Assembly: GCA_016180435.1 (NCBI GenBank)
Contig: JACPBG010000002.1
Coordinates: forward strand, 60,342-124,341
Reading direction: 5' to 3'
Length of the DNA stretch: 64,000 bases
Source: Candidatus Sungiibacteriota bacterium
GTDB lineage: Bacteria > Patescibacteriota > Minisyncoccia > Sungbacterales > HO2-52-23
In this document: piece by piece, positions 3,408-36,301 of the stretch
Numbering within the stretch: the stretch's first letter is position 1
How the letters are laid out: every line of letters starts with the position of its first letter
The notes under the pieces: generated by a model
Told to the model about the DNA's origin: nothing
The model's database searches: none
The model's input: only the letters and a program-made list of their open reading frames with translations
Position numbers and translations under genes: made by a program

Positions 3408-3914
3408 ATGCGCAGATCAAAGGTAAAGGTGGAGACGAAAAAGGTGAAGCACGAGTGGGGGAAAAATCGCATGGTGGTTTTGGAAGCTGGCGAGAATTTG
3501 GACCTCGGTAAGCTCTTTGAAAAGGACACTCTTGTGTCCCATGAGTATTGGGATTCGCTTAAAAGAAAAATGCAGCTTGATCCGGAAAAACAGCTTTTGT
3601 TTGCGGTGTTGGAAGACGCAGTGCATTGTTTTCAGAAATATATTAGTTTTTCCAGCCGGAGAGGCCGCACACTTTTTTTAGACGCCGATACCTGGATTCA
3701 GGAAAAAGACGCAAATGACCTGTTTTCGTTTGAGGGCGTTTGCGATCATCTCGGATTTGATGCGGATTATGTTCGGGAGGGTCTGAATCGTTGGAAAGAG
3801 CGGAATCGGTGTCCGGTAGAAATCCAGGTGAGCCGGAAAAGAAGAGGGCGTAAGCTGCGCGATCTTACGGTTTTTGAAGTATATGAAAAACCACCAAATG
3901 CGGCGGTTGTATAA
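3408..3914 (+). CDS. hypothetical protein
   Basis: ATG at 3408 follows GGGGAG. The 168-aa ORF matches no motif I recognise. Confidence 0.45.
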   Translation: MRRSKVKVETKKVKHEWGKNRMVVLEAGENLDLGKLFEKDTLVSHEYWDSLKRKMQLDPEKQLLFAVLEDAVHCFQKYISFSSRRGRTLFLDADTWIQEKDANDLFSFEGVCDHLGFDADYVREGLNRWKERNRCPVEIQVSRKRRGRKLRDLTVFEVYEKPPNAAVV

Positions 3915-3960
3915 TGCAGCCGTCTTTTTTTATCCCCGATTTTATGATATAGTGTGGACT

Positions 3961-5811
3961 ATGAATGCAGATGAATTACGTCAAAAATTCCTGGATTTTT
4001 TTGAGAAAAACGGACATACAGTTGTGCCGTCGTCCTCCCTGATTCCCGATGACCCGTCAGTTCTTTTAACAACCGCCGGCATGCAGCAATTCAAGCCATA
4101 TTATTCGGAGCTTGATCCGGAAAAAACTATACATCCGTCCCTTGGAAAACCGATTGGAAAAAATGTGGTATCCGTGCAAAAATCGTTTCGTACTTCGGAC
4201 ATTGACGAGGTGGGAGACGATTCCCATCTTACATTTTTTGAAATGTTGGGCAATTTTTCGTTTGGCGGATATTTTAAAAAAGAAGCGATTACATTTGCGT
4301 TTGATTTTATCACCAAGGAATTAAGAATTCCGATCTCTTTTGTAACTGTATTTGAGGGATCGCATGGTGTTGCCAAAGACGAAGAATCCCGCGCTATTTG
4401 GAAAAAACTTGGTGTTTCGGATGTGAGGGAGCAGGGGATTGAGGATGTGTTCTGGGGACCGACCGGATCAGCCGGACCATGCGGCCCCACCACCGAAATT
4501 TATTGCGAAAATGCGGCAGGCGGAAAAGCGGAAATTTGGAATATTGTTTTTAACGAATTTTATTTTCCCGGCTCGCGAGAGGAACTTTTGTCCGGTTCGT
4601 CCGGAAAATCGCTTGAGCGATTGAAAACTCCGGGCGTGGATACCGGCATGGGATTGGAACGCCTCGCGATGATTGCGCAGAACAAGAAAAATATCTTTGA
4701 GACGGATTTGTTTGTGCCTTTTTTCGAACTGTTGCCATCCGAATTGCCTGAACGCGAAAAAAGGATTATCGCGGATCATCTGCGCGGAGCCGTTTTTTTA
4801 ATAGCCGATGGTGTGCGTCCTTTGAATAAAGAAGCAGGATATATTTTGCGTCGTCTTATGCGACGAGCCTTAGTTTATGAATATAAATATAAAATTTCTC
4901 CGGAATTTTTCATCTCAATTATGGGTGAAACCATTTCTAATTATGGGAAATTTTATAGCCAACTTGTAAAGGAAAGTGAAAATATTCGGATAGAATTTGA
5001 AAATGAGCGAAAAAAATTTAGGAAATTATTACCTCACGGTTTGATACAAATAAATCATCACATTGCTTTAGATCAAGAGTTATTGAAAAAAGATTCTCCT
5101 AATATAAATAAGGAAAGGGCATTATCTGGTTTTCAGGCGGGTTTATTCGCATTTGATCTTTTTCAAGATTCCGGTTTTCCTACCGAAGTGAGTAAAGAGT
5201 TATTTGAACAAGCCAACTATGATCTTACTCGCTTTGAGGCGGGTGTCCTGGAGAAAGCTAAAAAACACCAAGAGATTTCGCGTCGGGGCACCGAAAAAAA
5301 ATTCGGGGGGCATGGATTATTGCTGGACACCGGGGAACTTAAAGCCGCGGATGAAAATGAATTAAAAATCGTAACGCGGCTCCATACCGCAACCCATATG
5401 CTCCAGCAGGCCTTGCGGGAGGTTTTAGGGCCGGACGTGCATCAGGCCGGATCGGACATTACCGTGGAGCGCACGCGGTTTGATTTCACGTTTCAGCGAA
5501 AACTGACTTCCGAGGAGATAAAGCAGGTGGAGGATTTGGTTAATCAAAAAATAAAAGAGGATTTGCCTATGCAAAAAAAAGTGCTTCCGAAGTCGGAAGC
5601 GGAAAAAACCGGCGCGCTTTATTTTTTCAAAGAAAAATATCCGGATCCGGTGAATGTTTATTTTATCGGGAAAGATTTGGAAAATGCTTGGAGCAAAGAA
5701 TTTTGCGGAGGTCCGCATGTAATGCATACCGGCGAGATCGGTAAATTTAGAATTGCTAAAGAAGAAGCAGTGGGGGCGGAAGTTCGTAGAATCCGTGCGG
5801 TTGTGGAATAA
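3961..5811 (+). CDS. alaS: alanine--tRNA ligase, short form (616 aa)
   Basis: The class II core shows FFEKNGH, LLTTAGMQQFKP, HLTFFEMLGNFSFGGYFK and GVDTGMGLERL. The editing domain shows HTATHML and CGGPH. The ORF ends right after the editing domain. Confidence 0.9.
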   Translation: MNADELRQKFLDFFEKNGHTVVPSSSLIPDDPSVLLTTAGMQQFKPYYSELDPEKTIHPSLGKPIGKNVVSVQKSFRTSDIDEVGDDSHLTFFEMLGNFSFGGYFKKEAITFAFDFITKELRIPISFVTVFEGSHGVAKDEESRAIWKKLGVSDVREQGIEDVFWGPTGSAGPCGPTTEIYCENAAGGKAEIWNIVFNEFYFPGSREELLSGSSGKSLERLKTPGVDTGMGLERLAMIAQNKKNIFETDLFVPFFELLPSELPEREKRIIADHLRGAVFLIADGVRPLNKEAGYILRRLMRRALVYEYKYKISPEFFISIMGETISNYGKFYSQLVKESENIRIEFENERKKFRKLLPHGLIQINHHIALDQELLKKDSPNINKERALSGFQAGLFAFDLFQDSGFPTEVSKELFEQANYDLTRFEAGVLEKAKKHQEISRRGTEKKFGGHGLLLDTGELKAADENELKIVTRLHTATHMLQQALREVLGPDVHQAGSDITVERTRFDFTFQRKLTSEEIKQVEDLVNQKIKEDLPMQKKVLPKSEAEKTGALYFFKEKYPDPVNVYFIGKDLENAWSKEFCGGPHVMHTGEIGKFRIAKEEAVGAEVRRIRAVVE

Positions 5812-5818
5812 AATATAA

Positions 5819-5843
5819 GCGTTGTCACGGACAGTGACAACGC
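5819..5843 (+). terminator. hairpin after alaS (10-bp stem, no clear U-run)
   Basis: GCGTTGTCAC-ggaca-GTGACAACGC. Confidence 0.35.
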
Positions 5844-6066
5844 GCAATCCTTTCGTAGCTTTCTTGACCTCCGAAGTTTTAACGAAGTAGGTAGCGAAGT
5901 CTGAATACGCCACCCGTCTGGCGTATTCAGAAAGAAACAAAAGCCCCGCGAATGCGAGACTTCTGCCTGATCTCAACGTAATACGAGATACAGGATTATC
6001 ACCTAATTGTATTGTAGCAGATCATAATATTCTGTCAATAGCGGGGCCTGTGGATATCCTTGAAGC

Positions 6067-6136
6067 GGTGGAGGTGCGGGGAATTGCACCCCGGAGATCA
6101 TGGGTGATAATCCTGAACTCGCACTACGCCACCCCC
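6067..6136 (-). other. tRNA(Ala)-acceptor-like element (not a canonical tRNA)
   Basis: The minus strand reads GGGGGTG...CGGGG-TGCAATT-CCCCG-CACCTCC-A-CC. This gives a 7-bp acceptor-like stem with a G3.U70 wobble, a T-arm-like hairpin and an A73-like base followed by CC. The D-arm region is aberrant. Confidence 0.3.
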
Positions 6137-6252
6137 ACCGCAGATTCAGAATATCAGGACGAGTGATTATTGTAAATAATTCCTGTGGCATTTCGAGTAG
6201 TGGGAAAAGTGTATGAAGTGTCATAGTGATTAAATGGTGTTAGAGTATACGT

Positions 6253-6597
6253 ATGTCTATAAAAATCATTAAAAACAAAATATTTAAATCCGAGCTTTCG
6301 GAAATTGCCCAAAATCAATTCGGCGATTTTGTGAAAGCTGTGGTGGACATAAAAAAAGGGATAATGGCAGTCGGCGGTGAACTTCATGCTGATGAAGAAG
6401 CCCTGCTTTTAGAAGATGGCTCCCGGCAAGAAAATTTGTGGGGCATAAATTTGTATCCGAATAAAACCGCCAAGGATCGGATTGAATTTAATTCCATGAT
6501 AAATGTCCGGCCGTCCCAGGGAAATCGTTCGCGAGGGGTGGAGAATCCGGATATTCAGGAGAAGATAAAAACAATAGTTAAAAAGTTAGTTTCTTGA
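6253..6597 (+). CDS. small conserved hypothetical protein (resembles DUF5674 as I recall that family)
   Basis: 114-aa ORF containing FVKAVVDIKKGIMAVGGELHADEEALLLEDGSRQENLWGINLYP. The family assignment is from memory only. Confidence 0.5.
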   Translation: MSIKIIKNKIFKSELSEIAQNQFGDFVKAVVDIKKGIMAVGGELHADEEALLLEDGSRQENLWGINLYPNKTAKDRIEFNSMINVRPSQGNRSRGVENPDIQEKIKTIVKKLVS

Positions 6598-7491: not shown

Positions 7492-7544
7492 GTGTACGAA
7501 TAATAAACGAATTACTTAACGAATTTGAACGAATCACGAATACA

Positions 7545-7595
7545 TAAATAATAAAAAGTGTAGAACCCCCGGGAGCACGAGGCTCGCGGGGGTTC
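7545..7595 (-). terminator. Rho-independent terminator (minus strand)
   Basis: GC-rich hairpin GAACCCCC...GGGGGTTC, followed on the minus strand by CTACACTTTTTATTATTT. Confidence 0.7.
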
Positions 7596-7746
7596 AACTT
7601 GGCTAGGCGTATTTCTACGCCGGCGCCGACGACCTAGGTTAACGCATTCAAATTAAACGCGTTTTTGGTCTTCACGTCATGGTTCCTCCTTTCTTTGGCC
7701 TCCACACGTCGTGTGGATAGGGTAACGATGACACTTCAAGAACCAT
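7596..7746 (-). ncRNA. candidate small RNA or leaderless micro-ORF transcript
   Basis: Consensus-like promoter upstream and terminator downstream. It contains AAAGAAAGGAGGAACC-ATG-ACG-TGA and several hairpins. No ORF of 60 aa or more. Confidence 0.35.
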
Positions 7747-7751
7747 TTTTA

Positions 7752-7779
7752 AGTATACTCTTCGTATATTTATTGTCAA
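7752..7779 (-). promoter_or_regulatory. sigma-70-like promoter (minus strand)
   Basis: TTGACA (7779-7774), 16-nt spacer, TATACT (7757-7752). Confidence 0.6.
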
Positions 7780-7844
7780 GTCGCATAAGAGGGGATAGCC
7801 CTGCTTTTTTGTTTACCCGCCTTACTATATAATAGAAATAAGCC

Positions 7845-21375: not shown

Positions 21376-22460
21376 AATTTGTTTCTTCTTAAATATATGG
21401 ACCTTGGATAATCGGCGGCAGTCACCAGTTCATCAATTCTTTCACTGATCAGCTCGCCGGTATTTCTTCCTCCGCGTCCGTCAATCTCGGTAAAATATAC
21501 TCCGTCTTTGGTGAGCATGACAATATGAGCGTCGTCGTAATAATACCAGCGCGCATCCAGAATCGGTTCCTGCAGGGTTATAATCTGTTCTATTAGGCCC
21601 TTTTTTTGAAACGGCTGGTATTCATTATCCTGCAGCCATAATATTTCTATACTGTTTTCTTTTTTTAAGATAAGTTTTTCTCCTTCCGTATCAAATGAAA
21701 TTGCTTTAGCGCCTCCGGCCAGGGGTTTCAATTCATTGGTTTCACTTTCTATTATAAAAAGTCCTCCGCCGGCATCCAAAATCGCCAATTCGCTGCGCGG
21801 CGATATGAAAAATTGCGCCGGTATTTTGTCAGAAAGGAAAAATCCCGGTCGGCCCAGCGTTTCAATCATCCCGTTACTATTTAATTTTGCCGCAAAACCG
21901 GCTTCGGTAATAAAAAATATAGCGCCGTCGATATAGGCAAATGAATTCACTCCGGGTGTCAGCACGGTTGTCGTGGCGCGGCCGTTTAGCACGCGGTCTT
22001 CAACCAGATTGTTTTTTTTATCAAGCCGAATTTTACGCGCGGAAGTGGTAGTCGCCAATCCCAAAGATATGATTTCGTCGCGTGTTGCCGTGGCGGTCAT
22101 GACCGGTGAGGGGATCAGGATGACATTTCGTATTTCGGTTACGGCGGCTTTTTCCACGGTTACGGTTTTTGACCAAGGCCGGTAATTTTCCTTTTCCAGA
22201 CGTAGCAGATGTATGCCGGGCCTGATTTCGGTCAATAGCGCCCCGCCGGAAAAAATTGATGTCTCTTTCTGAAATTCGTTGTCCAGAAAAATTGAGATGC
22301 TTGCGATCGTGGATTTTATAAAAATACCGCCGCGCTGCTCCAGCGAGCGTGATGATAAATTGATCGTATAGCCGAGCGAATGAGCAATTACTATCGGCAA
22401 AAGCACGATAAATGCGGCCAGCAGGAGATAAAAAATTTTTTTTCTGGTTGCCAGCTTCAT
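21354..22460 (-). CDS. membrane-anchored protein with a PEGA-like domain
   Basis: N-terminal TM helix, then IFLDNEFQKETS...GIHLLRLEKENYRPWSKTVTVEKAAVTEI. The stop overlaps the ABC transporter start. Confidence 0.55.
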   Translation of the reverse strand: MKLATRKKIFYLLLAAFIVLLPIVIAHSLGYTINLSSRSLEQRGGIFIKSTIASISIFLDNEFQKETSIFSGGALLTEIRPGIHLLRLEKENYRPWSKTVTVEKAAVTEIRNVILIPSPVMTATATRDEIISLGLATTTSARKIRLDKKNNLVEDRVLNGRATTTVLTPGVNSFAYIDGAIFFITEAGFAAKLNSNGMIETLGRPGFFLSDKIPAQFFISPRSELAILDAGGGLFIIESETNELKPLAGGAKAISFDTEGEKLILKKENSIEILWLQDNEYQPFQKKGLIEQIITLQEPILDARWYYYDDAHIVMLTKDGVYFTEIDGRGGRNTGELISERIDELVTAADYPRSIYLRRNKLWKKIEL

Positions 22461-30961: not shown

Positions 30962-31004
30962 GCAATATGGTTTCTATTTTTTGTGTCGAATCAGATTCGG
31001 CACA

Positions 31005-31196
31005 TTTCATTTTAAAACACGTTCGGTTCGTTCAGCGACGAACCTCACTAAGCATCCGGCGATTCGCCGAGCACTCAATTTATCCCAAAATAGTTCCCGA
31101 GCCAGTCGAGGGACTACCTTTAGGGAAGTAAGTGTTGTAACAATAGGTTGAGTGTTCGGACCATGCCGAATCGCTTTCTGATTGTTTTAAAATCAT
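31005..31196 (+). repeat. degenerate R3-like element with an internal insert
   Basis: Outer stem TTTTAAAACAC/..TTGTTTTAAAA and a CTAAG box. The internal segment aaaatagttcccgag..gggactacc is also seen at 25124-25158. Confidence 0.45.
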
Positions 31197-31389
31197 ATTG
31201 CCTCAGACCGCATCGCTCGCTTAAAATTTTTACTCAATGAAGAAAAAAGGGGGTTTGCTGAATGTAGCCGCCTGCTTGTCTATCCGAAGTCGAAAGGCAT
31301 AGGAGGGCGGCGGCCTCTTATATAAAAATTCCACCCGACTGGATGCCGGGTGGCACATATTGATTGCGGCGGCGGAGGCGGGGAAACTA

Positions 31390-34166: not shown

Positions 34167-34194
34167 TGGGAAAAATTGTATTTTGCTCGGCAAC

Positions 34195-34400
34195 ATTATT
34201 TTGAAACATTTTTATTCGCCCTGCAGCCATAAATTTTCCAGAACTCCTATTCGGACAAAAATAATCGCTTCATACCCCGCATTTTTTAACGGGCTTCGGC
34301 CGCTCCGGCGGCGGCCTGCAGGGTCGGCGACTCGCTCATGCGTAATCATACCGAACCTACGTTAATGGAAAATTTCCGGCAAACAGGGCTCGCTTTATTT
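34195..34400 (+). repeat. degenerate R3-like element (after rseP)
   Basis: It contains GGCCGCTCCGGCGGCGGCC-TGCAGGGTCGGCGA, matching the P2 stem and core of R3. Confidence 0.4.
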
Positions 34401-34467
34401 GATTTTTAGAATCAAATTGTCTCGTTGTAATTTTTCCTCATTGTGGAGTAGGGAGTTTGCTGAATGT

Positions 34468-34490
34468 AGCCGCGTTGCGCGGCTTTTTTA
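34468..34490 (+). terminator. Rho-independent terminator at the end of the GTTTGCTGAATGTAGCCGC box
   Basis: AGCCGCG-ttg-CGCGGCT, followed by TTTTTTA. Confidence 0.65.
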
Positions 34491-34500
34491 TTGATTTTTA

Positions 34501-34544
34501 AACTGTATCTAAAATTACGCTTAAGCGTAATTTTAGATACAGTT
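34501..34544. repeat. 44-bp perfect palindrome with no loop
   Basis: AACTGTATCTAAAATTACGCTT is immediately followed by its exact reverse complement. Confidence 0.9.
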
Positions 34545-34621
34545 ATTTCTGTGGAAAACTTTGGTTGAAAGTATTATGGGTGCGTGCTATTATCCTTTTC
34601 AGATCGTTGAGGAGTATTGAT

Positions 34622-35439: not shown

Positions 35440-35603
35440 CTTTTTTCCGCCACGTGAAGGTACTATTGAAATGGTATGGCTGGGGATAAATAAAGTCAAA
35501 TACAAATACTTGCATTGTTAGTACAGTTATGCTATACTGTAATGTATAAGCTTAGTATTAAAACAATATAGGTCTTAGATATCAACATTTCTGTTGATGT
35601 TGA

Positions 35604-35705
35604 CCCCGTTAGAAAGAAACAAACATAGTAGTTCCAAAATTCCAAGCAATTTTTAACACAAGCCACGAATACGGCAATTAAAAACCTTTGTTTTTTTCTA
35701 ACGGG
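35604..35705. repeat. R7 element (CCCCGTTAGAAAG...TTTCTAACGGGG)
   Basis: About 20-bp terminal inverted repeats enclose an unrelated AT-rich core. Confidence 0.75.
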
Positions 35706-35723
35706 GTTGAAAGGCCATCCATA

Positions 35724-35834
35724 CTCCCAACTTTTTGCATCCGGAGTTTCAGCTTATGATTCAGCAATGAATTAAGACGCTAAAGGTATACGAAATCCTA
35801 CAGCAAATAGAGCACGGCTGCAAAAAGTTGGGAG
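35724..35834. repeat. 16-bp perfect inverted repeat enclosing 79 nt
   Basis: CTCCCAACTTTTTGCA (35724-39) pairs with TGCAAAAAGTTGGGAG (35819-34). Confidence 0.85.
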
Positions 35835-35869
35835 GACAAGTTTTAAGAGGAGCGAGGTCGTTAATAGTC

Positions 35870-35998
35870 AGAAAATTCGAAATTCGAATAATGAAATTCG
35901 AAACAAATCCCAAATCATAAATTCAAATGTTTCAAACGTTTAGAATTTAGAATTTTGATATTGTTTAGAATTTAGAATTTAGAGTTTCGGATTTAGTA
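35870..35998. repeat. R8 heptamer palindrome (GAAATTC)n ... (TTAGAAT)n
   Basis: gaaaattcgaaattcgaataatgaaattcgaaac ... gtttagaatttagaatttt..gtttagaatttagaatttagagtttcgg. Confidence 0.8.
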
Positions 35999-36003
35999 TT
36001 ATA

Positions 36004-36204
36004 GTGGCTTTTCAAGATCAACAGGGAGGATTCCAGGATGATCGCCCGAAATACGACATCACCTGTTCCAAATGTGGTAATCAAGGAACGGTTCCGTTCC
36101 CGCCCACACCGGGACGCGATGTCTTCTGCCGCGATTGTTTCCGTCAGAATAATCCGAATCCCCGCCGCGAATTTCGCGGACGCGGAGGATACGGATCAAG
36201 ATAA
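36004..36204 (+). CDS. small zinc-ribbon protein with a CxxC-x17-CxxC motif
   Basis: GTG start. The motif is CSKC-17 residues-CRDC, followed by an Arg/Gly-rich tail. Confidence 0.5.
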   Translation: MAFQDQQGGFQDDRPKYDITCSKCGNQGTVPFPPTPGRDVFCRDCFRQNNPNPRREFRGRGGYGSR

Positions 36205-36301
36205 ATCTAAAGGCCGGGCATTGTCCGGCTTTTAGATTTATCAATCTCTAAGTTCTAATCTCTAATTTCTAATAAAACACTAAAAATGTTATTATAGCAG
36301 A

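What the first reader, a model, noticed from the sequence alone, without database searches (positions are those of the whole stretch)
5860..6190. Densely structured 440-bp non-coding gap after alaS contains a tRNA(Ala)-acceptor mimic with G3.U70
On the minus strand, 6136 to 6067 reads GGGGGTG-(36 nt)-CGGGG-TGCAATT-CCCCG-CACCTCC-A-CC.
- This gives a 7-bp acceptor-like stem whose third pair is G.U, a T-arm-like hairpin and an A73-like base followed by CC. G3.U70 with A73 is the classical AlaRS identity set, and AlaRS charges acceptor/T-arm minihelices.
- The wobble is G.U only when read on the minus strand. On the plus strand it is an A.C mismatch, which argues for a minus-strand RNA.
- An anticodon-arm-like hairpin exists (GATTA-TCACCCA-TGATC), but there is no proper D arm, so it is not a normal tRNA.
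- The region also has a 13-bp perfect long-range inverted repeat (5991-6003 with 6103-6115) and a 13-bp hairpin (5900-5931).
- Sitting next to alaS, it could be a regulatory or decoy tRNA-like RNA, a decayed tRNA-Ala, or an attachment-site relic.
Basis: partly seen in the sequence, partly recalled or inferred. Interest (0 to 1): 0.5.

Follow-up and report, generated by a model that had tools for sequence, protein, structure and literature searches.

The report
Coding-less tmRNA-like RNA with partner RNA
The gap after alaS holds two small minus-strand RNA genes, a 70-nt alanine-type tRNA-like RNA resembling the tRNA end of tmRNA without its coding part and a partner RNA that base-pairs with it; the pair recurs in other ultra-small (CPR) bacteria and is unrelated to alaS.

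Summary
**Observation:** confirmed. Minus strand 6136-6067 folds into a 7-bp acceptor stem with G3.U70, a T arm, A73 and CC. There is no D arm and no canonical anticodon arm.

**Identity:** Rfam matches it only to the two ends of tmRNA (26.9 bits, E=1e-8, 328-nt internal deletion). ARAGORN calls nothing. It is a tmRNA tRNA-like domain (TLD) without a tag reading frame, the rare "standard, no CDS" form. About 28 distinct homologues were found, and their unconstrained stem positions covary.

**New here:** It joins the TLD interior to the 5' end of a second small RNA (about 6004-5929), which has its own invariant promoter and terminator.
- All low-GC (CPR-type) loci with enough downstream sequence have this partner.
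- 8 of 13 pairs in the core helix show double compensatory changes.
- G.U outnumbers A.C 40 to 8, so the pairing is at RNA level on the minus strand.

**Link to alaS:** adjacency is not conserved. GC-rich relatives lack the partner and sit beside IS1595-family transposases or in viral contigs.

**Most likely mechanism (inferred):** an alanine-accepting TLD RNA that a dedicated antisense-type RNA masks or gates. A split, coding-less tmRNA complex is the main rival.

**Verdict:** new variant of a known kind.

The parts
6148..6176 (-). Promoter-like site of the TLD gene (TTTACA-17-TGaTATTCT)
   Evidence: - Consensus scan, 9/12 match with TG.
- The extended -10 (TGnTAnnnT) is conserved about 12 nt before G1 in 12 CPR loci (alignment A2).
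- Transcription itself is not shown.
6137..6141 (-). 5' leader GCGGU, complementary to the 3' end ACCGC (6069-6065)
   Evidence: Leader/trailer pairing of 4-6 bp occurs in all 13 CPR-type loci, and position -4 covaries with +76 (GCGGU/ACCGC against GUGGU/ACCAC). Its meaning is unexplained.
6067..6136 (-). 70-nt tmRNA-TLD-like RNA.
- Acceptor stem: 6136-6130 with 6076-6070, with G3.U70.
- Mini-hairpin GC-GUAGU-GC: 6129-6121.
- P2-like hairpin: 6120-6094.
- T arm: 6093-6077, loop UGCAAUU.
- A73-C-C: 6069-6067.
   Evidence: - Sequence read directly.
- Rfam tmRNA 26.9 bits, E=1e-8, matching only the termini.
- Minimum-free-energy fold is the closed tRNA-like shape.
- 28 homologues covary in the acceptor, T and P2 stems.
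- The family model R1 scores 86.9 bits here and finds a single copy.
6049..6061 (-). Conserved spacer box AAGGAUAUCCACA between the TLD and the partner-RNA promoter
   Evidence: Present in 9 of 12 CPR loci (RCCUNAAAGNUAUCCACA) and absent from L229, L220 and L242. Function unknown.
6011..6038 (-). Promoter of the partner RNA (TTGACA-16-TGcTACAAT)
   Evidence: 11/12 consensus match with TG. TTGACA and the TA...T of the -10 are invariant in all 12 CPR loci.
5929..6004 (-). Partner small RNA ('anti-TLD'), about 75 nt.
- 5' tail plus helix strand: 6003-5976.
- Self-pairing segment: 5974-5966.
- Terminator hairpin: 5965-5938.
- U tract: 5937-5929.
   Evidence: - RNAduplex with the TLD interior gives -39.6 kcal/mol, z=-6.0. 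The same holds in all 11 other low-GC loci that have downstream sequence.
- Covariation: 8 of 13 pairs in the core helix have double changes and 98.7% of cells are paired.
- The heterodimer is about 17 kcal/mol more stable than the two free RNAs.
- The ends are inferred from the promoter and terminator, not measured.
5976..6003 (-). Strand of the partner RNA that pairs with TLD positions 8-34 (window 6129-6103)
   Evidence: - Exact 13-mer repeat.
- 242 Watson-Crick, 40 G.U, 8 A.C and 9 other cells across 12 loci.
- On the TLD side GCGUAGUGC is invariant, while the partner side toggles C/U.
5900..5931 (-).
   Evidence: It folds, but relatives diverge completely after the partner-RNA terminator.
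5819..5843 (-). Terminator-like hairpin abutting the alaS stop codon; specific to this window
   Evidence: Terminator scan: minus strand, 10 bp plus a U-rich tail. Not conserved in relatives. It probably ends alaS and/or minus-strand read-through.

Best explanation
The gap encodes a two-RNA module on the minus strand.

**RNA 1** is a 70-nt relative of the tRNA-like domain (TLD) of tmRNA.
- It has no mRNA-like part, pseudoknots or tag frame.
- It has an acceptor stem with G3.U70, then A73-CC, a T arm, an invariant GC-GUAGU-GC mini-hairpin in place of the D arm, and a 9-bp hairpin in place of helix P2.

**RNA 2** is an RNA of about 75 nt with its own strong promoter and intrinsic terminator.
- Its single-stranded 5' tail is complementary to the loop of the TLD hairpin.
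- The complementarity continues through the 5' strand of that hairpin and the GCGUAGUGC motif.

**Proposed mechanism (inferred)**
1. RNA 1 is matured like a tRNA or tmRNA, alanylated by AlaRS, and interacts with the ribosome-rescue machinery (SmpB, EF-Tu, stalled ribosomes). TLD-only RNAs are known to do this or to compete for it.
2. RNA 2 binds loop-first and zips up 25 bp. This unfolds the elbow and P2 arm, so it masks or gates RNA 1 while leaving the acceptor/T minihelix intact.

**Shown:** the sequences, the folds, the homologue family, the covariation of both RNAs and of their pairing, the conserved promoter and terminator, and the lack of linkage to alaS.

**Inferred:** transcription, processing, alanylation, SmpB or ribosome engagement, and the direction of regulation.
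For: **Identity of RNA 1**
- Rfam tmRNA matches only the termini.
- The closed tRNA-like fold is the minimum-free-energy structure.
- 28 homologues covary at unconstrained acceptor pairs 5-7 (11, 8 and 5 double changes), outer T-stem pairs (13, 10) and the P2 base (8, 8, 10).
- C16, T-loop G55 and C69 were free in the scan pattern yet are invariant.

**Partner RNA**
- Every low-GC locus with downstream sequence has a strong complement 30-63 nt after the TLD: -40 to -46 kcal/mol, z -5 to -11.
- The TTGACA/-10 promoter is invariant and the terminator conserved, and sequences diverge after it.
- The helix to the TLD loop and P2 5' strand has 13 pairs, 8 with double changes, and 98.7% of cells paired. 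Slid controls give 42-52%, and 0 of 500 shuffles reach the observed value.
- G.U to A.C is 40 to 8.
- The dimer is favoured by about 17 kcal/mol.
- The TLD's own hairpin also covaries (8 of 9 pairs), so two alternative states are maintained, as in antisense-controlled RNAs.

**Precedent**
- The TLD-only RNA of phage DS6A is known, and a similar molecule strongly inhibits tmRNA, perhaps by titrating SmpB (PMC4131195).
- 'Standard, no CDS' tmRNAs include 3 instances in Patescibacteria (PMC11915505).
Against: - No expression, processing or charging data exist.
- The motifs typical of tmRNA TLDs (GGAUUCGAC, and GAC before the T arm) are replaced, and the Rfam score is below gathering (26.9 against 47). 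SmpB binding is therefore not assured.
- No smpB is in the window.
- G3.U70 and the CC end were fixed by my scan patterns, so their invariance among homologues is by construction.
- In CPR loci the leader pairs with the ACC end, which might hinder RNase P or argue for a different mature end.
- The TLD has no terminator of its own, so the two RNAs may be one co-transcript. The helix could then serve assembly rather than inhibition.
- Whether these genomes also carry a standard tmRNA is unknown.
Confidence: 0.5

Rival explanations
1. Split, coding-less tmRNA. The TLD and the downstream RNA are cut from one precursor by tRNA-processing enzymes, or are made separately. They stay base-paired as the active two-piece ribosome-rescue RNA, as in permuted two-piece tmRNAs but with a different break point and no tag. 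It would be the only ssrA of these lineages.
For: - There is no terminator between the TLD and the partner RNA, so co-transcription is likely.
- Known permuted tmRNAs are two pieces held together by base pairing (PMC11915505).
- The GCGUAGUG motif also occurs in the acceptor piece of a genuine permuted tmRNA, L159, with tag ANDNHYQSHALAA.
- The acceptor/T minihelix stays intact in the complex (sequence).
- ARAGORN and Rfam thresholds miss this family, so such genomes would look tmRNA-less.
Against: - The helix consumes the invariant elbow motif GCGUAGUGC, which partner-less relatives conserve.
- A 9-nt linker would have to span a 25-bp helix.
- No conserved tag frame exists. The only recurrent frame (9 codons) has a non-conserved peptide and is broken in L235 (note).
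- The partner has its own strong invariant promoter.
- The distribution is sparse: 12 CPR-type loci in the metagenome scan. The position is not conserved in close relatives. About 78% of Patescibacteria genomes already have a standard tmRNA.
Confidence: 0.25
2. RNA-only addiction or mobile-element relic. The TLD-only RNA is harmful because it blocks trans-translation, and the adjacent antisense RNA is its antidote. The pair would have been acquired horizontally from phage- or IS-borne TLDs.
For: - GC-rich relatives sit in viral contigs or beside IS1595-family transposases and an integrase.
- TLD-only RNA inhibits tmRNA.
- The partner promoter is stronger than the TLD promoter.
- The occurrence is patchy and the position variable, spanning Sungbacteria and Doudnabacteria.
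Against: - There are no mobility genes near any CPR-type locus.
- It is single-copy in the window.
- Toxicity is untested, and the flanks are housekeeping genes.
Confidence: 0.12
3. The partner RNA is a leaderless mini-mRNA (9 codons, NUG to stop), and the TLD loop pairs with its start codon to control or exploit its translation.
For: A 9-codon frame with AUG, GUG or UUG and UGA, UAA or UAG is kept in 10 of 11 loci.
Against: - The peptides are not conserved (VIILYLVLR, MAIPTHVLR, VTSQTRHCV).
- NUG is simply the complement of the TLD loop motif CAY, which partner-less relatives also have.
- The stop is U plus two purines of a stem.
- GUG and UUG are poor leaderless starts (established knowledge).
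- L235 breaks the frame.
Confidence: 0.05
4. One reading: an alaS-linked regulatory or decoy tRNA-like RNA, a decayed tRNA-Ala, or an attachment-site relic.
For: The AlaRS identity elements are present, and the element is adjacent to alaS in this window.
Against: - The adjacency is not conserved.
- Compensatory evolution excludes decay.
- There is no integrase or repeat scar in the window.
Confidence: 0.04

Closest known systems
tmRNA (ssrA) tRNA-like domain, in particular the 'standard, no CDS' / TLD-only forms (mycobacteriophage DS6A, Mallomonadaceae plastids, Patescibacteria genus 9FT-COMBO-53-11; PMC11915505, PMC4131195)
   Same: - 5' GGGG... and ...CUCCACC(A) ends, G3.U70, A73 and a T arm.
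- No anticodon arm and no tag frame.
- About 65-70 nt.
- Rfam tmRNA is the best match.
   Different: - The D-loop analogue is GC-GUAGU-GC, not GGAUUCGAC.
- There is no GAC before the T arm.
- The T loop is UGCAANU (G55).
- The score is below Rfam gathering.
- No base-pairing partner RNA is mentioned for these forms in the two tmRNA database papers read here.
Two-piece (circularly permuted) tmRNA of Alphaproteobacteria, some Betaproteobacteria, cyanobacteria and jakobid mitochondria, including the 're-permuted' Jakoba libera gene
   Same: - Two RNAs held together by base pairing.
- tRNA-type processing sites.
- The GCGUAGUG motif is shared with the acceptor piece of L159.
- Mitochondrial forms lack a tag frame.
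   Different: - Here both acceptor strands are on one piece.
- The second piece has its own promoter.
- It pairs with the interior of the TLD rather than completing the acceptor stem and P2.
- The Rfam permuted model scores only 14.3 bits.
tRNA-Ala and the alanine minihelix
   Same: G3.U70 and A73 on a 7-bp acceptor stem stacked on a T arm. This is the established AlaRS identity set.
   Different: - No D arm and no 7-nt anticodon loop with U33/R37.
- The variable region is 0-2 nt.
- ARAGORN is negative.
Antisense-RNA control pairs that start by loop/tail contact and then zip up (CopA/CopT, RNA I/RNA II, Sok/hok type)
   Same: - A single-stranded tail meets a hairpin loop, followed by extended duplex formation.
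- The regulator is encoded adjacent to its target and has the stronger promoter.
   Different: - The target is a tRNA-like non-coding RNA, not an mRNA.
- The partner is encoded on the same strand downstream, not as an overlapping antisense gene.

Membership tests
tmRNA (RF00023 / ssrA) | tRNA-like domain: 7-bp acceptor stem with G3.U70, T arm, 3' (A)CCA, no anticodon arm | tested here: met
   The stems covary in 28 homologues.
tmRNA (RF00023 / ssrA) | mRNA-like domain with a resume codon, a tag reading frame ending in a stop codon, and pseudoknots | tested here: not met
   - Only 36 nt separate the two TLD halves.
- No conserved tag frame lies downstream.
- ARAGORN finds no tmRNA.
tmRNA (RF00023 / ssrA) | Score at or above the curated Rfam gathering threshold | tested here: not met
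   26.9 bits against 47. There is no gathering-level hit in the window.
tmRNA (RF00023 / ssrA) | Works with SmpB, which is encoded in the same genome | not testable with these tools
   No smpB was found in the 64-kb window. The rest of the genome is not available.
TLD-only / 'standard, no CDS' tmRNA forms | Both TLD halves contiguous in standard order, about 65-70 nt, no CDS, closer to tmRNA than to tRNA | tested here: met
   In the clan competition tmRNA is the best-scoring model. The class is described in PMC11915505.
Permuted two-piece tmRNA (RF04321, RF01849-51) | The 3' acceptor piece ending in CCA lies upstream of a coding piece that begins with the 5' acceptor strand | tested here: not met
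   - The 5' acceptor strand (6136-6130) lies upstream of the T arm.
- There is no second GGGGGUG downstream.
- RF04321 scores 14.3 bits.
Canonical tRNA (tRNA-Ala) | Cloverleaf with a D arm, a 5-bp anticodon stem and a 7-nt loop | tested here: not met
   ARAGORN is negative. The comparative structure has a 2-bp mini-hairpin and a 9-bp stem with an 8-nt loop.
Antisense-regulated RNA pair | Conserved complementarity between two independently transcribed RNAs, maintained by compensatory change | tested here: met
   Independent transcription is inferred only from the invariant promoter.
Antisense-regulated RNA pair | The partner changes the activity or stability of the target | not testable with these tools
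   Needs experiments.

The most novel reading that the evidence does not exclude
This is a previously unrecognised two-RNA system in CPR bacteria. An alanine-accepting, coding-less tmRNA relative either works only in complex with a dedicated base-pairing RNA or is switched by it. That would make it a new architecture of split tmRNA, or an RNA-RNA switch or toxin-antidote acting on ribosome rescue. Partner-less relatives are carried by IS1595-type elements and phages in other phyla.
Probability: 0.35. Interest if true: 0.8.

Novelty: new variant of a known kind. Interest (0 to 1): 0.64.

Why it matters
- How tmRNA relatives without a tag frame work, or interfere, is unresolved. Examples are jakobid mitochondria, some plastids, phage DS6A and a few bacteria.
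- A bacterial lineage keeps such an RNA together with a co-evolving partner RNA. That gives a concrete, testable handle: charge it, bind SmpB and ribosomes, and add or remove the partner.
- Standard annotation (ARAGORN, Rfam thresholds) misses this family. Some CPR genomes scored as 'tmRNA-less' may therefore carry it.
- Tying the same RNA fold to IS1595-type elements elsewhere hints at a mobile origin.

Tried and rejected
- **Synteny with alaS.** 80 loci were fetched. The 8 Patescibacteria ones have no element.
- **Synteny with DUF5674.** Identical-protein contigs carry an identical gap, so they give no variation. Relatives at 82% identity have Peptidase_M23 or a surface protein upstream instead.
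- **Synteny with BipA in Doudnabacteria.** Six loci at 79-93% identity show only ordinary tRNAs, and the flank is rearranged.
- **Permuted tmRNA reading.** The 10-nt repeat GGGTGGCGTA at about 5914 followed by TTCAGACTTCGC looked like the start of a coding piece. Its acceptor strand would pair only 5 of 7 positions, and relatives lack the region.
- **Tag reading frames in all frames downstream.** None is conserved.
- **The 9-codon frame.** Judged a by-product of the RNA constraints.
- **A partner RNA in GC-rich relatives.** None within 900 nt on either strand.
- **Cultured-phage database.** No match to the module or to the TLD-transposase unit.
- **Text search for the motif.** It returned only unrelated sequence matches.
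- **smpB.** Not found in the window.
- **First viral scan pattern.** It was flooded by ordinary tRNAs and had to be tightened.
- **Folding of the permuted tmRNA L159.** Done to test homology of the helix; inconclusive.

Full report
**1. What is in the sequence**

The 441-bp gap 5812-6252 lies between two ORFs.
- The first is a 645-aa AlaRS (3874-5811, +; Pfam tRNA-synt_2c 2.5e-91 plus tRNA_SAD).
- The second is a DUF5674 ORF (6253-6597, +).

On the minus strand, 6136..6067 reads GGGGGUG GCGUAGUGC GAGUUCAGGAUUAUCACCCAUGAUCUC CGGGG-UGCAAUU-CCCCG CACCUCC A CC.
- ARAGORN finds no tRNA or tmRNA in the whole window.
- No Rfam family reaches its gathering score.
- With a permissive threshold the best hit is tmRNA (RF00023): 26.9 bits, E=1.1e-8, gathering 47.
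  - It is aligned end to end, with the central 328 model positions deleted.
  - Only the 5' acceptor strand, the T arm and the 3' acceptor strand with ACC match.
- The free 70-mer has the closed tRNA-like shape as its minimum-free-energy fold, at -28.2 kcal/mol.

**2. Organism and synteny**

The DUF5674 protein is 100% identical to one from a 'Candidatus Sungbacteria' metagenome-assembled genome. The nearest AlaRS loci are Patescibacteria at 41-59% identity.
- None of eight Patescibacteria alaS loci carries the element.
- Contigs with the identical DUF5674 protein have an identical gap.
- Relatives at 79-82% DUF5674 identity have other genes upstream and no element.
- The position next to alaS is therefore not conserved.

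**3. A family of closed mini-TLDs**

A loose pattern scan of viral contigs was dominated by ordinary tRNAs, but it also showed two kinds of TLD-only RNA of about 70 nt.
- One kind keeps the classical tmRNA motifs (..GAUUCGAC..hairpin..GGAC-T arm). It passes Rfam's tmRNA threshold with a 306-nt deletion (L103, 54.3 bits).
- The other kind shares with the window the motif GCGUAGUGC directly after the acceptor strand and the T loop UGCAANU.

Tighter scans gave 5 viral and 32 metagenome loci, with 31 distinct matched sequences; 28 of them were aligned (A1) after leaving out L218, L241 and L244.

*Caveat.* The scan patterns fixed G1-G4, G8, G10-G13, G15, the inner T stem, T54, C56, A58 and U70-C75. 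Invariance of G3.U70 and of the CC end among homologues is therefore by construction.

At the free positions the evidence is independent.

| Feature | Result |
|---|---|
| Acceptor pairs 5-7 | 11, 8 and 5 double compensatory changes |
| Outer T-stem pairs | 13 and 10 double changes |
| Base of the internal hairpin | 8, 8 and 10 double changes |
| C16, T-loop G55, C69 | invariant |

A covariance model of the family scores the window copy at 86.9 bits and finds no second copy. ARAGORN misses every member tested.

The loop does not have anticodon-loop geometry.

**4. The partner RNA**

TLD positions 8-19 and 22-34 (6129-6103) pair with 6003-5976.

*Occurrence.*
- Eleven other low-GC loci have enough downstream sequence: L220, L221, L222, L223, L228, L229, L232, L234, L235, L242 and L248. 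All carry an equally strong complement of their own TLD interior 30-63 nt downstream (-40 to -46 kcal/mol, z -5 to -11).
- None of the GC-rich loci does, within 900 nt on either strand.

*Conserved layout in the alignment of 12 loci (A2)*.
1. An extended -10 promoter about 12 nt before G1.
2. The TLD.
3. A spacer, often with the box AAAGNUAUCCACA.
4. An invariant TTGACA, then 16-17 nt, then TGnTAnnnT.
5. About 7 nt further on, the complementary segment.
6. A short self-pairing segment.
7. A GC-rich hairpin followed by a U tract.
8. After that the sequences are unrelated.

In the window the promoter is 6038-6011, an 11/12 consensus match with TG. The RNA runs from about 6004 to 5929.

*Pair counts on A2*.
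- The helix to the TLD loop and hairpin 5' strand has 13 pairs. Eight show changes on both sides, and 98.7% of cells are paired.
- The helix to GCGUAGUGC is 89.5% paired. The TLD side is invariant and the partner side toggles C/U.
- The whole structure is 93.1% paired, against 42-52% when partners are slid. None of 500 shuffles reaches the observed value.

*Why the pairing is itself selected.*
- Loop nucleotides of the TLD covary with the partner's 5' tail. The TLD's own hairpin cannot explain that.
- Across the helix there are 242 Watson-Crick, 40 G.U and only 8 A.C cells. The pairing is therefore at RNA level on the minus strand.
- The heterodimer (-74.2 kcal/mol) is about 17 kcal/mol more stable than the two free RNAs (-28.2 and -28.9). 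The free partner exposes a 10-nt 5' tail complementary to the TLD loop.

**5. What it is not**

- *No tag frame.* There is no conserved tag reading frame downstream.
- *The 9-codon frame.* The only recurrent frame has 9 codons, runs from NUG to a stop codon, and lies inside the pairing segment. It is kept in 10 of 11 loci.
  - Its peptide is not conserved.
  - Its NUG is the complement of the loop motif CAY, which partner-less relatives also have.
  - Its stop is U plus two stem purines.
  - L235 breaks it.
- *Not a permuted tmRNA.* A genuine one, picked up by chance (L159, RF04321 60.4 bits, tag ANDNHYQSHALAA), has the opposite order of the acceptor strands.
- *No conserved protein neighbour.* The flanks are alaS and DUF5674 here, and SecA, a DNA-alkylation-repair gene, a diversity-generating retroelement (RT plus bAvd) and BipA elsewhere.
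- *No smpB.* None was found in the window.

**6. Distribution**

- L242 belongs to 'Candidatus Doudnabacteria' (BipA 88-92% identical to named genomes). The module therefore spans distant CPR lineages.
- It is absent next to BipA in six Doudnabacteria loci.
- Only a dozen CPR-type loci matched in the metagenome collection.
- GC-rich relatives are linked to mobile DNA.
  - In L191, L227, L216, L155/L238 and L237 an IS1595/ISXO2-type transposase lies 300-450 nt downstream.
  - In L191, L227, L216 and L155 a small conserved opposite-strand ORF and inverted-repeat operators lie between the TLD and the transposase.
  - L162 has such a transposase upstream, plus a phage integrase.
  - The transposase resembles those on alphaproteobacterial plasmids.

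**7. Known context**

The 2025 tmRNA database paper lists 9 'standard, no CDS' sequences.
- They include Mallomonadaceae plastid genes of about 65 bp, phage DS6A, Nasuia and the Patescibacteria genus 9FT-COMBO-53-11 (3 instances).
- It reports standard tmRNAs in 5252 of 6765 Patescibacteria genomes.
- It mentions no partner RNA.

The 2014 paper states that the DS6A RNA is 'little more than the TLD'. It adds that a similar molecule strongly inhibits tmRNA, perhaps by titrating SmpB.

**8. Interpretation**

*Shown:* a structured, conserved, tmRNA-TLD-like RNA gene, and a co-evolving partner RNA gene.

*Inferred:* the TLD RNA is processed and alanylated. G3.U70/A73 on an acceptor/T minihelix is the established AlaRS identity set. 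The RNA then touches the rescue machinery.

*Preferred reading: masking or gating.*
- The partner covers the invariant elbow motif and the P2-like arm while leaving the minihelix intact.
- It has the stronger promoter.
- It contacts the target loop-first.

*Main rival: an active two-piece complex.*
- There is no terminator between the genes.
- Permuted tmRNAs give a precedent for two base-paired pieces.

*Pointers to an accessory, possibly horizontally acquired module.*
- The distribution is patchy.
- The relatives are mobile-element-borne.

*Unexplained:* in CPR loci the leader pairs with the ACC end (GCGGU/ACCGC or GUGGU/ACCAC), and position -4 covaries with +76.

**9. Verdict**

- The alaS-centred interpretation is not supported.
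- The element is a new variant of a known kind: a TLD-only tmRNA relative.
- Its dedicated partner RNA is a conserved feature that the literature I could search does not describe.

Noticed in passing
L103 2032-2101 (+); also L097, L113, L115, L117, L138, L140, L142, L145, L158, L177, L192, L194, L199, L209, L210, L214: A second family of about 69-nt TLD-only tmRNA-like genes occurs in viral contigs: GGGGGAAACAUAGAUUCGAC-hairpin-GGACGUGGGUGCGAUUCCCACUUCCUCCACCA.
- They keep the classical tmRNA motifs.
- L103 scores 54.3 bits on Rfam tmRNA with 306 model positions deleted.
- ARAGORN does not call L103, the only member tested.
   Followed up: partly
L191 4010-5523; L227 3317-4811; L216 7135-8508; L155 9310-9883; L237 762-1536; L162 11056-12072: GC-rich relatives of the window's TLD are repeatedly followed, or in L162 preceded, by an IS1595/ISXO2-type DDE transposase.
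- In L191, L227, L216 and L155 a small conserved opposite-strand ORF and GTCAACG...CGTTGAC operators lie in between.
- The L191 and L227 transposases are about 93% identical, although their TLDs differ by many paired changes.
- Whether the TLD is cargo or target of the element is open.
   Followed up: partly
L159 5805-6046 (+): A genuine circularly permuted (alpha-type) tmRNA gene lies inside a viral contig.
- Its acceptor piece begins GGCGUAGUGGGCGCC.
- Its tag is ANDNHYQSHALAA (RF04321, 60.4 bits).
- ARAGORN misses it.
   Followed up: partly
window 6137-6141 with 6065-6069, and the same positions in 12 other CPR-type loci: The 5' leader is complementary to the ACC end and the two following bases, and one pair covaries. 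This extends the acceptor stem by 4-6 bp over the CCA end in the precursor.
   Followed up: partly
window 3874-5811 (+): The AlaRS is short: 645 aa, ending right after the tRNA_SAD domain, so it lacks the usual C-terminal part. Patescibacteria relatives match to its last residues.
   Followed up: no
L248 1793-3302: A diversity-generating-retroelement pair (bAvd-like protein and reverse transcriptase) lies a few hundred bases from the TLD/partner module in one CPR locus. This is probably coincidence.
   Followed up: no
window 35506-36301, 21376-21972, 30962-31389, 34167-34564, 7492-7844: Several other intergenic stretches in the window are long (350-800 nt) and have no ORF of at least 70 aa. 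None has an Rfam gathering-level hit, and the 64 kb holds no tRNA.
   Followed up: no
L191 13775-14239: The 104-kb viral contig that carries a GC-rich TLD also has a tRNA array (His, Gln, Glu, Gly). A second, diverged IS1595-type transposase copy (57% identical) lies next to it.
   Followed up: no
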